Made by a program: the position numbers and the translations under genes. A stretch of 64,000 bases of DNA, taken from contig NW_021834788.1 of NCBI RefSeq assembly GCF_006345805.1, positions 7,739 through 71,738 on the forward strand. Reading direction: 5' to 3'. Source of the DNA: Octopus sinensis. Lineage: Eukaryota. The notes under the pieces are model-generated. The model was not told the origin of the DNA, ran no database searches, and was given only the letters and a program-made list of their open reading frames with translations. Of the stretch, positions 17,481 through 62,710 are shown in pieces (position 1 is the stretch's first letter; each line of letters begins with the position of its first letter).

Positions 17481-18577
17481 TTCATCCATGACTAGCTCAC
17501 TATTTTACCTACCGACCCTGTAGCCCCTGATGGTAAATTATTTGCTCTTAACATATTGGGTTTTTAGACTATTTGTCTAAGCCATGTTATTCATTCCTTT
17601 TACTTCTTCCTTTTCTTCATATTGTATGCTCTTGTTTTACACTCTGATGAAGATCCGTTGCCTTATTTCGAATCCCCTATGGAGATGAAAAACTTTATTC
17701 TCCCATTTATTTATAGACTGCATTTAGGCAATCCGATCAGTAACGGCCGTAAGATATGTTACGTCACCTATTTTGTTATGTAAAGCTTTATATTCAAAAA
17801 TATGGTATAAATGTGGTCCAATCGATGGGTTGGTTAATCTGTGGTTTTCTCCATTTTCTAAGTATTTGCATTGGTTCCTGATAAACTCTTTTCTATCCTT
17901 TTGTTATCTGCACTCTACGTCTATGGTGTGCCTGCACACCATTGCCCGGAGATAATACAGGTAACGGATACCGATTGTATACACGGATATGTTATCCCTT
18001 AGTCGGTTACTATGACCGCTAACTCTGCATTTGATATATATACACACACAAACACACGCATACACACACACACACACACAGACATATATATATATGTCGG
18101 GTGACTTTTGGCCAACCTATATATATACAGACATATAGTCTTGGAATAGAAATCACAATCACTAGAGCAACATCCGACCACTAGGCCATACACCCTCGCA
18201 CACACACACATACATATACATACTTATACATATATCTATCTATCTATATATATATATATAATATATATATATATATATATATATGTAAATACAATATATA
18301 ATGTAATATATATGTATATATATATACATACACATATATATACATACATATATATATATATCTATATATATATATATATATATATACATATATATATATA
18401 CATATATATATACATATATATACACACACACACACACACACACACACACACACACATATATATATATATATATATATATATATATATATATATATATTAT
18501 ATATATATATATATATATACACATATATAAGTATATGAAAGAATGGAGTTGAACGACTAGTTAACATATATCCTTTA

Positions 18578-18660
18578 TTCTCGACATATGTTTCGAAGGC
18601 TGCATATTCCTAATTCCGAAGGAATCAGGAGTACATTATGCAGATTTCTCATCAGGAATA
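18578..18660 (-). ncRNA. type I hammerhead ribozyme (antisense arm of P1)
   Basis: Reverse complement reads TTC CTGATGA GAA..CTGCATA...TATGCAG..TTC GAAA CATATG TC GAG; stem I is shorter than in the plus-strand copy. Confidence 0.6.
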
Positions 18661-18753
18661 TCAAGGAACTTATGTCGACATCAAAATGCACAAAAAACTT
18701 TTACCTGACCGGTCAGCTAAAAGTTTTGTGTGCATTTTGATGTTATTCCTTGA

Positions 18754-18836
18754 TTTTCCTGATGAGAAATCTGCATAATGTACTCCTTATTCCTTCGAAA
18801 TTAGGAATATGCAGCCTTCGAAACATATGTCGAGAA
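18754..18836 (+). ncRNA. type I hammerhead ribozyme with extended stem II
   Basis: TTTTC-CTGATGA-GAA(AT)CTGCATA...TATGCAG(CC)TTC-GAAA-CATATG-TC-GAGAA; intact core, palindromic stem III ACATATGT, GUC site after 18831. Confidence 0.75.
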
Positions 18837-20047
18837 TAAAGGATATATGTTAACTAGTCGTTCAACTCCATTCTTTCATATACTTATAATTTTAAAATAA
18901 ACATACAAATTTCCGCACGAAGACAAGTAGTCTATGCCCTAGGGACGTAGCTTCAACCGTGTTCTTTCTGATGTGAATTTGCTACCCAGGTATCGGTTAT
19001 CTTTCGAATTATCCTTAATAAGATAATTCATTCAATTATTCAAATATACACATATATATATATATATATACATTATATATATATATATATATATATATAT
19101 ATATATATATATAATATATATATATATATATATAATATTTAAAGGTATTTTGTATGTCTATCTATCTATAAATATGCATACACAGAATTTTTGTCTGCCT
19201 GTATAGAAACAAATATAATATATGTAAATGTATGCATATATAAACTCGTATATATATACAGGAATCATCAAGAGATTAGAAAGAGAGCGGGAGGGGGACA
19301 GAGAGGAGTAAGGAGACATACACTCATTAATATTTGCTTTAATGCCTAAATGTCCTCTGTATTTGTCTGGGTGCACATGTATTAAAGTGTTTGTAGCCGT
19401 GTTTCTTTTATCGTTGCACACTCGCTCCCTCTGCAACATAACAAACACATTTTGTCTATCATTCTCTCTCTTACACACATACACATACAAACTCTCATTC
19501 TCTCTCTCCCTCACCCTCTCTCAAGCGGACATGCATAGTTTATCTTTGTTATTCTCGGAATAATAAGAAAGCGATATTCTATGGGGAAGGGCTCGATGTA
19601 GTCTACCAGGCTGTTACTTAAATAAATATAAATAATCAGCTGATAACTACAAATAACTATTTTATCTCATCGGGGCGTTCATCAATTACTTTCCAATTGT
19701 AGCATATATCAATTTCTTTGTAATATATAGTCATTGAATAGAAAATATTTTTTTGCTGTCTGGACATCCTTCCGTTTGTACTATACATATTCAGTAGCGA
19801 AGTAACGTCATTTTCGGTTTGATGCAGCAAAAGACCCCATTGAATCATGCCATCTCTTTAAATTTTCTCTTCTTCAATACTACTCTCTCACTTTCTTTGT
19901 CTCTCTCCTCTTTTCTCTCTTGCTCTCTCTCTCTCTCCCCTCTCATTTCTGAGTATCTTTATATATATGTGTGTGTGTGTGGCGTATATATATATATATA
20001 TATATAATATATATATATAATATATATATATATATATAATTATAATA

Positions 20048-20640
20048 ATAATATTAGGGAGTATATCAAAACTTACAGGGAAAGATTAGATTTAGGATTA
20101 AATCAAATTTCACAGTATGAATATGAATATAAATTAAATCTCTCTCTATATAAACGGCAGTTTGTCTGTGCGTTTTCTGTCTGTCTGTTTTCTCGTACCC
20201 TCACTCTGACCACGGCTTTCAACCGATTCTGATGAAACTTGACACACACATAGCCCAATGTCATAATTCAAAACTAACGCAGCGAAAATTTTGAAAAGTT
20301 CCCCCAGTTCTGAAAAAAATCGATAAATTCGACATGGGGTCGAGAATCAGGAACCCAAACCACAGACCGTCTAGGGGACGCAACTCCACCTTTTTTAACT
20401 CTCAAAAAAAATTTACCATCATTTTTTTCCCATTTTTTTGCTATTTTTTGGCTATAACTCTCTAAAAATGCTTTATAGTTATTTCCCTTACAAACCTGAG
20501 CAACGCCGGGCGATACTGCTAGTTAGAGATAAAACCACTATTAGGCAACTCAAACAGTGATAGACATAAACCAAAACATAAAAAACAATGAATAAATATA
20601 ATTAATATAATATACAAAATATATATAAAATTTGAATTTA
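20048..20640 (-). mobile_element. diverged tail and arm fragment of hammerhead family P2, interrupted by a Helitron
   Basis: AATATTAGGGAG...CTTACAGGGAAAGATTAGATTTAGGATT...TTAGAGATAAAACCACTATTA matches the reverse complement of the tail and arm near 57000-57156. Confidence 0.7.
20139..20522 (+). mobile_element. non-autonomous Helitron
   Basis: A|TC 5' end, subterminal hairpin CCTGAGCAACGCCGGG, CTAG|T 3' end, no TSD; removing it rejoins the P2 sequence. Confidence 0.85.
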
Positions 20641-20694
20641 TAAATTTTTAAACTTTTAAACTTTTCCCTTCCTTGGATCTTTCCTTTTCCTATG

Positions 20695-60527: not shown

Positions 60528-62044
60528 TGCCCTTTAACCGCAGCTTTCAAATCCAGCTAATTCGACGCAGTCAAGTGGCTTTTGTACCAGTGAAAGCAAA
60601 AAACAATTGATATAATAGTCGTAATATTACCAAACTCGCGATGTTGCTGCTCCATCGTTTTTGCAGTCCAATGTCAGGAAGCGGAAAGATTTGGTTTTAG
60701 ACGTGAAACCAATGTGCATATGTAAATACGAACGTCAGTCTGTCTGTCTGTCTGTATGTATGTATACGAAAACGGTTATAAATATGATAACCAGGCTAAA
60801 TACACATACTTGTCGCCAGTGAGATTCTTATGTAAACTGCCTTAAATTTAATTACTTTTTTTTGTAATAGGAAAAGCATAGTGGGGGCGAGGATGACTGA
60901 CATATTTGAGAGACAGAGAACATTGAAGGAAGGAAGACGCAGAGGTTACGATTTATGCAAAATGTGGCTTTTTGTTTTTGGTAAGATGTAGACATTGGTA
61001 TATTAAATCAAGCACAGCGTTACGTATTCCTTCTTTCTTTATTCATGTCTTTCTCTTTTCCTTCCTGTCCCTACCAATGCATATATATATTAATATATGT
61101 ATATATTATATAAGTAAATAAATGGTACGACGAGGCACCGATTTAATATATGTATATATACATATATAATATATAATATATATATATATAATATATATAT
61201 ATATATATATATATATATAATATATATAATTATATATATGTATGTATGCACGTATGTTGTATGTATGTATATGCATAACAGTTGATAAATGCTTGCATAC
61301 GCTTCATGTAGATAGTGACTCCATTGTGCACAGAGAATTTGGAATCTGAATCGACAACTTCATTAGAACCAGATAGGCTAGAGGTTAGCAAAGTGAGTTA
61401 GATTGATATTGAAGGAACATGGAATTAAGAAGTGAGAGAAACCATAACAGATATAGGAAATGCATCTATATGAAAAGTTGCGTATACATGATATTGCCAA
61501 ACGATAGTTTTACATCTGTTTCGAATGAACGATGACAGGTTGATAAAACAATGCATATTATGCAAGCGAGTGCAATAGTGAGGTAACACTGTAGGTATGA
61601 ATGCACATTATGAACTTTTGAAGAGAATTTCGTGGTTCTAATCCATACAGTTGCCAAATCTTTGCTAGTTGATGCGCTGCATTCTATACGTGGCATTTCA
61701 TATACATACGTTCCTTATGACTGTTATCGGTCCTCTGCCTTCCCAGATTTTCTCCCTCTCTATTTTTCTTCTCCTTCTCTCTCTTCCTATCTTTCTCACA
61801 CACTCACACCATATATATATATATATATATAATAATGATAAATATCAAAGTGAGTTATATACAGTAGCGGTAACACATCGTGACGTATTTTTGCCATTTC
61901 AATATGGCTAACCCCTAAGGGTGGATGCTACTATAGTTTTTAGCCCCAGGAGGACACACTCCTCTAGCTGGCCATAGACACACTTTCTGTGTCCTGTCAG
62001 TATTTGCAAAGGGAAGTCATCCTTCCCGTCTTCAACTTATTATA

Positions 62045-62089
62045 CACAGGGACTCGAGTTTCGAGGTATTGACCTCTCGTCAGCGTGTG
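62045..62089 (-). ncRNA. type I hammerhead ribozyme
   Basis: CACACG-CTGACGA-GAGGT CAAT ACCTC-GAAA-CTCGAG-TC-CCTGTG, with one stem I mismatch. Confidence 0.8.
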
Positions 62090-62312
62090 ACAATCATAGT
62101 TGTCGGCGAGAATTAGATTTCCTTCACAAATACTTATACTTTTTCCAGCGTCCACTGTCGCTGATATTGAAAAAGTGAAATCAAACAATGATAAATATCA
62201 AAGTGAGTTATATACAGTAGCGGTAACACATCGTGACGTATTTTTGCCATTTCAATATGGCTAACCCCTAAGGGTGGATGCTACTGTAGTTTTTAGCCCC
62301 AGCAAAGATTGT

Positions 62313-62357
62313 CACACGCTGACGAGAGGTCAATACCTCGAAACTCGAGTCCGTGTG
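62313..62357 (+). ncRNA. type I hammerhead ribozyme, canonical core
   Basis: CACACG-CTGACGA-GAGGT CAAT ACCTC-GAAA-CTCGAG-TC-CGTGTG; 6-bp stem I, 5-bp stem II, palindromic stem III ACTCGAGT, GUC site after 62351. Confidence 0.92.
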
Positions 62358-62570
62358 TATCATAAGTTGAAGACGGAAGGATGACTTCCCTTTGCAAATA
62401 CTGACAGACACACAGAAAGTGGTGTCTATGGCCAGCTGGAGGAGTGTGTCCTCCTGGGGCTAAAAACTACAGTAGCATCCACCCTTAGGGGTTAGCCATA
62501 TTGAAATGGCAAAAATACGTCACTATATATATATATATATATTATATATATATATATATATAATATATAT

Positions 62571-62710
62571 AAATATTATTAGAGACAAAACCACTATTTT
62601 GCAAAACAACAAGGAAGACTTAATCAATACATAAAATTTTAATAAATAGTCAAAAAAACCGCCACTACAATCGTTTCTTGTCTTGATCGACAATCTTCAG
62701 GTGGACTTAA
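62571..62710 (-). mobile_element. diverged P2-family arm in (TA)n
   Basis: TTAGAGACAAAACCACTATT...AAGACTTAATC..ATACATAAAA matches the P2 arm starting at 56481. Confidence 0.75.
62662..62704 (-). ncRNA. type I hammerhead ribozyme (P2 variant)
   Basis: Reverse complement CCAC-CTGAAGA-TTGTC GATCAA GACAA-GAAA-CGATTG-TA-GTGG. Confidence 0.8.

What the first reader, a model, noticed from the sequence alone, without database searches (positions are those of the whole stretch)
18526..62710. A recurring class of (TA)n-embedded fold-back elements carrying hammerhead ribozymes, often on both strands
Seen in sequence: five sequence-unrelated non-coding elements (18526-19044, 31738-31966, 32531-32805, 56481-57886, 61834-62523) share one plan. 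Each sits in a microsatellite (mostly TA), has a long inverted repeat, and has a 46-155 nt tail on one side only. Four carry a type I HHR, usually with a self-complementary stem III (ACATATGT, ACGATCGT, ACTCGAGT). Established knowledge: Penelope-like element (PLE) pLTRs carry minimal type I HHRs and often insert with an inverted pLTR that lacks the 3' tail, and metazoan non-LTR retrozymes are thought to use PLE machinery. Inference: this is a diverse, microsatellite-targeted set of non-autonomous ribozyme retroelements mobilised by PLE RT/GIY-YIG. The density here (about 10 intact HHR cores in 64 kb) suggests a large, possibly uncatalogued ribozyme repertoire in this genome. The general mechanism is known; whether these families are described I cannot check.
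Basis: partly seen in the sequence, partly recalled or inferred. Interest (0 to 1): 0.85.

Follow-up and report, generated by a model that had tools for sequence, protein, structure and literature searches.

The report
Penelope-type insertions with hammerhead ribozymes
Five mirror-image repeats sit in (TA)n microsatellites, and four carry hammerhead-ribozyme sequences. They are likely the usual truncated, partly inverted footprints of Penelope-like jumping genes, a known pattern, although one is likely a very abundant 353-base ribozyme element that borrows those enzymes.

Summary
The five elements, their inverted arms, one-sided tails and microsatellite flanks are real, and ten hammerhead cores are present (shuffles give at most 1). 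The ten come from only five insertions, only three pass a strict descriptor, element 3 has none, and the element-4 doubling may be an assembly duplication.

[quoted passage not shown] New here is a relic Hydra-clade PLE endonuclease at 21800-22135 that ends at (TA)n. The hammerheads of elements 4 and 6 score as Hydra-type, so they are likely truncated PLE ends.

Element 5 differs: a canonical hammerhead in a 353-nt unit, about 10^4-fold deeper than its flank in three runs, with the same tail-less end recurring beside TA-rich sequence. Three contig records suggest a head-to-tail monomer, that is a retrozyme with a PLE footprint; none meets the tool's bridging rule. Cleavage, expression and the partner element are untested.

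Verdict: new members of a known kind.

The parts
18526..18668 (-). el1 inverted, tail-less copy; hammerhead core C3 at 18655, predicted cleavage after 18583; A.A mismatch in stem I
18669..18745 (.). el1 head-to-head junction with an inner 26-bp hairpin
18746..18888 (+). el1 direct copy; hammerhead C3 18759, cleavage after 18831, 54-nt extended helix II, helix III ACATATGT; passes the strict descriptor
18889..19044 (+). el1 tail, 156 nt, ending at (TA)n
20040..20609 (-). older relative of el4: tail (20040-20137, 84%) and arm (20520-20609, 80%) separated by a Helitron-like insert
   Evidence: the Helitron reading is by eye
21800..22135 (+). relic C-terminal GIY-YIG endonuclease of a Hydra-clade PLE, with stops and frameshifts
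   Evidence: profile positions 586-701 of about 701, E 2.9e-11
22136..22378 (+). non-coding 3' part of the Hydra relic, ending at (TA)n 22379-22419; only the 3' half of a hammerhead-like motif remains
   Evidence: no hit or 88
25771..25870 (+). 92% copy of the el3 'tail', lying between (TA)n tracts
31738..31845 (-). el2 inverted, tail-less copy with a complete hammerhead (C3 31832, cleavage after 31782; one-base bulge in helix II; 9-nt helix III)
31837..31966 (+). el2 shorter direct copy (3' half of the hammerhead only, helix III ACTCGGAGT) and tail of about 60 nt (31907-31966)
32531..32805 (-). el3: palindrome 32674-32805 and one-sided 143-nt stretch 32531-32673; no hammerhead; possibly two insertions
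56481..57160 (+). el4a: inverted tail-less copy (C3 56627-), inner hairpin, direct copy (C3 56935+), tail 57087-57160; Hydra-type hammerhead with unpaired 10.1/11.1 and helix III ACGATCGT
   Evidence: 41.3 bits
57211..57890 (+). el4b: near-identical repeat of el4a (C3 57357-, 57665+); recent or assembly duplication
61834..62186 (-). el5 unit A, 353 nt, with the 46-nt tail (61834-61879); canonical hammerhead C3 62083, C.C mismatch in stem I
62187..62302 (-). el5 unit B: 116-nt partial tandem copy including the tail
62307..62523 (+). el5 unit C: inverted tail-less copy; hammerhead C3 62319, cleavage after 62351, Rfam RF00163 32.2 bits (gathering score 34)
62570..62712 (-). el6: single tail-less relative of el4 (78%) with a Hydra-type hammerhead, C3 62700; passes the strict descriptor
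   Evidence: 34 bits

Best explanation
These are inverted-repeat insertions in (TA)n tracts, four of five carrying hammerhead cores, likely made by the reverse transcriptase and GIY-YIG endonuclease of Penelope-like elements. Inferred steps, taken from the published PLE model: the enzyme nicks both strands of AT-rich DNA and starts cDNA at two fixed sites on the RNA. One cDNA includes the tail and the other starts just inside it. Both stop early and are joined head to head, sometimes through a self-primed hairpin (el1, el4). The palindrome and the second-strand hammerhead would thus be by-products of insertion. El4 and el6, and probably el2, are likely 5'-truncated ends of Hydra-clade PLEs, a clade that has left an endonuclease relic at 21800-22135. 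El5 is likely a non-coding 353-nt head-to-tail retrozyme monomer, copied 1.33 times plus once inverted by the same kind of machinery. The hammerheads would cut multimeric RNA, as monomers or as dimers through the palindromic helix III; this is untested.
For: Shown here: anatomy and cores. Hydra-clade relic ending at (TA)n (clade motifs RWK, DKT and CxCX5C as in PMC8557442 section 11). Of 78 ORF-bearing Hydra-type loci, 51 carry a hammerhead and 40 have a sense one 78-534 nt after the ORF; 14 of those 40 have the unpaired 10.1/11.1 position seen in el4. A model from 17 of them scores el4 at 41.3 bits and el6 at 34, and puts all ten cores in its top 11 hits. L057 has an ORF, an inverted 5' copy that stops before the 3' end, and helix III ACTCGAGT. 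For el5, contigs end at the same tail-less point (61880, or 62230/62233 in unit B) and run into AT/TA-rich sequence in three runs from three studies (29, 8 and 26 contigs); three strand-switch joints at other positions appear in X2. El4 relatives in the window end both with and without the tail. Published: two RT start sites flanking the tail, both strands nicked and extended (PMC11167929); inverted pLTR, tail and junction palindromes (PMC3846280; PMC8557442); (TA)n targeting by Hydra.
Against: No autonomous element sharing any of these ends was found: no DNA match to the 78 loci and no motif match in the Craig supplement; no whole genome was held. The Hydra relic's own 3' part does not match el1-el6. 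Tails of 60-156 nt exceed the usual 30-40 nt. El1 and el2 score only 11-16 bits on the Hydra model. No contig spans the el5 A|B junction by 31 letters on both sides. The active fold costs 2-8 kcal/mol over the best local fold. In a Xenopus study 8 of 9 predicted retrozyme dimers did not cleave. The Hydra profile was seeded from hits to the relic, and the Hydra hammerheads were picked with my own descriptor.
Confidence: 0.7

Rival explanations
1. Everything, el5 included, is an ordinary 5'-truncated copy of an autonomous PLE; the el5 A|B junction is a one-off template jump that formed a pseudo-LTR.
For: Partial tandem plus inverted copy plus tail is the textbook PLE insertion. No contig bridges A|B by the tool's 31-letter rule, and smooth depth across the junction does not discriminate.
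Against: Depth stays near 3e5 up to the 5' end of unit A instead of falling. X2 record 15 crosses the junction with 10 differences, X8 record 31 crosses it at depth 114 where the flank is nearly absent, and X4 has a head-to-tail joint with a different deletion. No PLE protein similarity was found in unit A. The hammerhead is canonical (RF00163).
Confidence: 0.15
2. All of them are short, non-autonomous ribozyme families with no ORF-bearing parent.
For: None of the elements reaches an ORF. Non-autonomous PLE derivatives exist (MRC1).
Against: El4 extends only about 180 nt and el6 and el2 far less upstream of the hammerhead, within the 78-534 nt non-coding gap of Hydra PLEs. Their hammerheads are of the type carried by ORF-bearing elements. 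El3 has no ribozyme.
Confidence: 0.1
3. The palindromes are TA-targeting fold-back DNA transposons, or long-read fold-back chimeras.
For: Near-perfect arms in el4. El4a/el4b and a second tandem at 26012-27307 differ only by one-base indels, as assembly duplications often do. The window's own el5 B-C joint could not be tested because it lay at the end of the stretch laid.
Against: Arms differ by substitutions in el1, el2, el3 and el5. Tails lie outside the repeat on one side only. Arms are truncated at different lengths. Independent public contigs show strand-switch joints and the same tail-less end. Hammerheads sit at the distance from the TA junction seen in Hydra PLEs (65-161 nt there; 94-204 nt to the tail-less end here).
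Confidence: 0.05

Closest known systems
Insertion architecture of endonuclease-bearing Penelope-like elements (PMC3846280; PMC8557442 Fig. 2; mechanism PMC11167929)
   Same: Inverted 5'-truncated copy lacking the tail, partial tandem, one-sided tail, palindrome at the inverted junction, AT-rich target, hammerhead in the repeated end.
   Different: No ORF inside these insertions; four of five tails are 60-156 nt, longer than the usual 30-40 nt.
Hydra-clade PLEs (Craig et al. 2021; Hydra-1_Obim, Penelope-13_HM)
   Same: (TA)n targets; hammerhead near the 3' end with an often unpaired 10.1/11.1 position and an 8-10-nt helix III; Penelope-13_HM has an inverted copy with a hammerhead on each strand; a Hydra endonuclease relic lies in this window.
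   Different: No sequence match to the listed consensus elements by five short DNA motifs and one peptide motif or, by eye, to the 3' end of Hydra-1_Obim; no ORF linked to el4, el6 or el2.
Metazoan non-LTR retrozymes (PMC7229834; bioRxiv 10.64898/2026.07.22.740005)
   Same: El5: canonical type I hammerhead, non-coding unit of 353 nt (mussel 350-390), 42% GC, high copy number, likely head-to-tail.
   Different: Only 1.33 units here, so no two consecutive hammerheads. It has an inverted copy and a tail, which the passages I read do not describe for retrozymes. No circular RNA or cleavage shown.
Dispersed and opposite-strand PLE hammerheads (Cervera and de la Pena 2014, PMC4209133)
   Same: Thousands of dispersed motifs attributed to truncated PLEs; pairs 100-700 bp apart on opposite strands; small palindromic helix III suited to dimers.
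   Different: Helix III here is an 8-nt palindrome, not the minimal form; el1 has a 54-nt helix II.

Membership tests
Penelope-like element insertion (EN+ PLE) | Inverted, 5'-truncated copy next to the direct copy | tested here: met
   el1, el2, el4, el5; el3 is ambiguous
Penelope-like element insertion (EN+ PLE) | Optional 3' tail with two fixed end points | tested here: met
   el5 tail-less end recurs in three runs; el4 relatives end with and without the tail; lengths 46-156 nt, mostly longer than published
Penelope-like element insertion (EN+ PLE) | Partial tandem (pseudo-LTR) | tested here: met
   el5 only, 116 nt
Penelope-like element insertion (EN+ PLE) | RT plus GIY-YIG ORF in, or sharing ends with, the element | tested here: inconclusive
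   No ORF in the elements; the relic at 21800-22135 shares no DNA with them; no genome held
Hydra-clade PLE (relic 21800-22378) | C-terminal GIY-YIG with CxxC and CxH motifs, at the end of an ORF of about 700 aa with RWK, DKT and CxCX5C | tested here: met
   The relic matches profile positions 586-701 (E 2.9e-11) and keeps CxxC but not CxH; RWK, DKT and CxCX5C were seen in its full-length relatives, not in the truncated relic
Hydra-clade PLE (el4, el6, el2) | Insertion in (TA)n | tested here: met
   el2's left end is in (ATAG)n
Hydra-clade PLE (el4, el6, el2) | Hammerhead of the Hydra type near the 3' end | tested here: met
   el4 41.3 and el6 34 bits; el2 only 14.8 bits, but its 9-nt helix III ACTCGGAGT occurs in Hydra elements
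Hydra-clade PLE (el4, el6, el2) | Linked Hydra ORF in longer copies | not testable with these tools
   needs the whole genome
Non-LTR retrozyme (el5) | Canonical type I hammerhead | tested here: met
   RF00163 32.2 and 28.0 bits, E 6e-6 and 1.5e-4, both below the gathering score of 34
Non-LTR retrozyme (el5) | Non-coding unit of 150-450 nt, GC under 50% | tested here: met
   353 nt, 42% GC; no PLE protein match
Non-LTR retrozyme (el5) | Head-to-tail tandem units, each with a hammerhead | tested here: inconclusive
   1.33 units here; three contig records support a shared junction, none meets the 31-letter rule
Non-LTR retrozyme (el5) | Highly self-paired monomer | tested here: inconclusive
   z about -5 linear and circular, but the adjacent flank of equal length gave -3.5
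Non-LTR retrozyme (el5) | Self-cleavage and abundant circular RNA | not testable with these tools
   needs an assay or raw RNA reads
Non-LTR retrozyme (el1-el4, el6) | Head-to-tail tandem monomers | tested here: not met
   none in the window; the el4 doubling repeats the whole palindrome with (TA)n between; other loci not examined

The most novel reading that the evidence does not exclude
El5 is a 353-nt retrozyme present in thousands of copies in an octopus-like genome, and it integrates with the full PLE signature: (TA)n target, two fixed RT start sites 46 nt apart (one in a predicted hairpin loop), rolling copy past one unit, and an inverted tail-less arm. That would be direct genomic evidence that PLE enzymes mobilise animal retrozymes by two-site priming on a circular or multimeric RNA, and it names the RNA element to test.
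Probability: 0.5. Interest if true: 0.55.

Novelty: new member of a known kind. Interest (0 to 1): 0.33.

Why it matters
The architecture is known, so most of this finding adds uncatalogued families to a described class. The useful part is el5. That PLE enzymes move animal retrozymes is proposed from shared ribozymes, co-occurrence and pLTR homology, and the texts I read give no insertion-site footprint for it. A high-copy retrozyme with PLE start sites would make the idea testable in vitro with a purified PLE protein. It also suggests that a lineage whose recent repeat annotation does not mention ribozymes (the host identity is my inference) holds thousands of them.

Tried and rejected
No whole genome was held, so no genome-wide search was possible. 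Rfam on the whole window listed no hammerhead among the 150 of 192 rows shown, which were microsatellite noise; on short stretches only el5 matched (el2 and el3 were not run). The repeat finder was swamped by microsatellites. Word-based protein searches with the relic and its closest relative found nothing longer; the full HMMER scan was needed. Pfam gave the relic only E 0.0034, below the cut-off, and gave P0055 no family; its RT motifs were read by eye. The el5 hammerhead pattern is absent from viral contigs. No RNA holder was listed for el5/el6; X8 is only guessed to be RNA, so expression is open. Depth across the A|B junction does not discriminate between readings. Folding z-scores of el1, el2, el4 and el6 single arms were unremarkable and el3 gave -2.0. 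Covariation among the Hydra hammerheads is circular, since they were picked by pairing, and is not used. A deliberate two-strand (viroid-like) design was rejected: whole elements fold 81-90% paired and would bury both ribozymes. PMC5785218 was not held. Literature searches for octopus or cephalopod retrozymes and for retrozymes with inverted copies or tails returned no such description; most subscription papers, Repbase and Dfam were not searched.
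Full report
OBSERVATION. The five elements are present as described. Pairwise alignment gives the arms and tails listed under parts. 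They do not match each other by blastn; el6 is 78% like el4, and further el4 relatives lie at 20040-20609 and 23585. Of 184 (TA)n edges in the window, 7 have an inverted-repeat arm within 14 nt: 5 belong to the named elements and 2 are microsatellite noise. The background is 23 of 5000 random positions. Ten exact hammerhead cores with recognisable helices exist. Three pass a strict descriptor and nine a relaxed one tuned after inspection; 150 shuffles gave at most 1. The tenth has an insertion in stem I. They come from five insertions: el1 (2), el2 (1), el4 (4, two from the doubling), el5 (2) and el6 (1). El4a and el4b differ by three one-base indels only, as does an unrelated tandem at 26012-27307 (one indel in 591), so both may be assembly duplications. 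El3 has no hammerhead, and its one-sided stretch has an independent copy at 25771-25870.

A PLE RELIC IN THE SPAN. Positions 21800-22135 encode a broken GIY-YIG domain. A full HMMER scan gave 50 relatives at E up to 0.001. I aligned 25 of them with the relic, and that profile found 106 longer proteins, nearly all of about 700 aa; 40 of these plus P0055 formed alignment A2. A2 shows RWK, DKT, CxCX5C and the CxxC/CxH motifs that define the Hydra clade (PMC8557442 section 11, read whole). The A2 profile matches the relic at positions 586-701 (E 2.9e-11) and nothing else in the window convincingly. The relic's non-coding 3' part ends exactly at (TA)n. Of seven hits looked up, two carried names, one an Octopus bimaculoides protein. 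With SINE-like repeats that I recognise from memory, this suggests an octopus; no tool established it.

WHAT HYDRA ELEMENTS LOOK LIKE. The paper's supplement (parts 2 and 53 of 59 read, plus term searches) lists (TA)n targets for almost all Hydra families, an Octopus family (Hydra-1_Obim), and Penelope-13_HM with an inverted 5' copy and a hammerhead on each strand. Of 78 metagenome loci with a Hydra-type ORF (best 80 of 476 kept), 51 carry a hammerhead by my descriptor. Forty have one in sense, 78-534 nt after the ORF; 66 loci had at least 150 nt there. Of the 40, 14 have an unpaired 10.1/11.1 position and 9 a perfectly palindromic helix III. El4's A.A mismatch is therefore a normal variant. 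A covariance model from 17 of these motifs, those with a 9-nt helix III, scores el4 at 41.3 bits (one copy 34.5), el6 at 34, el5 at 19.9 and 14.6, el1 at 16 and 11.2, and el2 at 14.8 (E-values rough). No DNA homology links el1-el6 to these loci. L057 shows an ORF with an inverted 5' copy that stops before the 3' end.

ELEMENT 5. Its hammerheads match Rfam Hammerhead_1 just under the gathering score; el1 and el4 do not match. The el5/el6 stretch is held by 20 of 24 listed runs from 9 studies. I laid 4 runs on 61400-62306, covering the flank and units A and B. Flank depth was 26, 56 and 42 in X1, X2 and X4, against 2.3e5 to 1.5e6 in the element; this is not a copy count, but the family is plainly abundant. 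X1 and X4 match the flank exactly and may be the source or close to it; X2 differs at 23 letters and 9 gaps. Contigs break off at the tail-less point into AT/TA-rich sequence in all three (29, 8 and 26 contigs among the rows shown; 381 rows were not shown). X2 shows three strand-switch joints at about single-copy depth. The A|B junction is crossed by X2 record 15 (10 differences, 23 letters on the short side) and X8 record 31 (none, 19 letters, depth 114 with the flank nearly absent). X4 has a head-to-tail joint with a 62-nt skip. None meets the 31-letter rule. Depth does not fall towards the 5' end of A. I put a family-wide 353-nt monomer at about 0.65. The unit folds strongly (z about -5), but so does the control flank (-3.5). 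The tail-less end falls in a predicted hairpin loop.

MECHANISM. Shown in vitro for another PLE: both strands of AT-rich DNA are nicked and extended, RT starts at two adjacent internal sites, the tail is the sequence between them, and hammerhead cleavage is not needed for insertion (PMC11167929, parts 1-2 of 4). Inverted pLTRs, tails and junction palindromes attributed to self-priming are described in PMC3846280 (passages), PMC8557442 (passages) and PMC8969392 (passages). Opposite-strand hammerhead pairs 100-700 bp apart and palindromic helix III are in PMC4209133 (sections 2-3). Applying this model here is inference. In el1-el4 the tail-less arm ends in a few bases shared with the TA target; in el5 it does not. 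The active folds cost 2-8 kcal/mol over the best local fold, the helix III octamers can pair as dimers (-6 to -11 kcal/mol), and read-through transcripts would be 81-90% paired.

COMPARISON. Retrozymes are 150-450-bp tandem repeats with canonical hammerheads, expressed as circles, with PLEs proposed as helpers (PMC7229834, section 14 and passages; PMC7761336, passages; bioRxiv 10.64898/2026.07.22.740005, parts 1-3 of 5, supplements closed). Non-autonomous PLEs with pLTRs are known in Chlamydomonas. The 2026 Octopus vulgaris repeat paper counts 31 recently active Penelope-like families and does not use the words hammerhead, ribozyme or retrozyme (part 1 of 3 and a term search); its library, which I did not see, may already contain these families. 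My searches found no account of a retrozyme with an inverted arm and a tail. Two earlier scan notes from other genomes reached a similar PLE reading; they are unchecked and are not counted as support.

VERDICT. The feature is real and the architecture is known. These are new members of a known kind, interest 0.33. The one lead worth following is el5 as a PLE-mobilised retrozyme.

Noticed in passing
window 46476-46665: A sixth, small example of the same plan without a hammerhead: short inverted arms beside (TA)n (about 46476-46490 and 46555-46568) and a one-sided stretch of about 95 nt.
   Followed up: partly
window 26012-27307: A 590-bp stretch repeated in tandem between microsatellites with one indel; like el4a/el4b, a possible assembly duplication.
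   Followed up: partly
window 20140-20521; 47327-47714; 54927-55322: Helitron-like inserts ending in a short hairpin and CTAG (read by eye); the first splits an old el4 relative between arm and tail.
   Followed up: no
window 51365-51423 (-), 4234 (-), 321 (-), 20717 (+), 32974 (+): Decayed hammerhead-like relics, three of them with a GAAACGT core (51379, 20717, 32974), probably from other PLE families.
   Followed up: partly
window 37687-38310: Tc1/mariner transposase remnant (Pfam PF01498, E 9.7e-13).
   Followed up: no
window 24453-25022: A 570-bp element with 32-bp terminal inverted repeats, mariner-like by eye.
   Followed up: no
window 18759-18831: El1's hammerhead has an unusually long helix II region (54 nt) and an 11-pair stem I with one mismatch; it fits neither Rfam nor the Hydra model well.
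   Followed up: partly
L004, L005, L014, L015, L031 and others, 3' of the hammerhead: A short motif, TTGAGCACT or a near variant, recurs shortly before the (TA)n junction in several Hydra-type loci; a candidate recognition signal, not seen in the window's tails by eye.
   Followed up: no
window 61400-61752: The flank used as control folds unusually well (z -3.5) and may be a decayed fold-back element itself.
   Followed up: partly
window 61958-62050: Contig depth peaks and loose ends point to a larger related family with a variant helix III and stem I.
   Followed up: no
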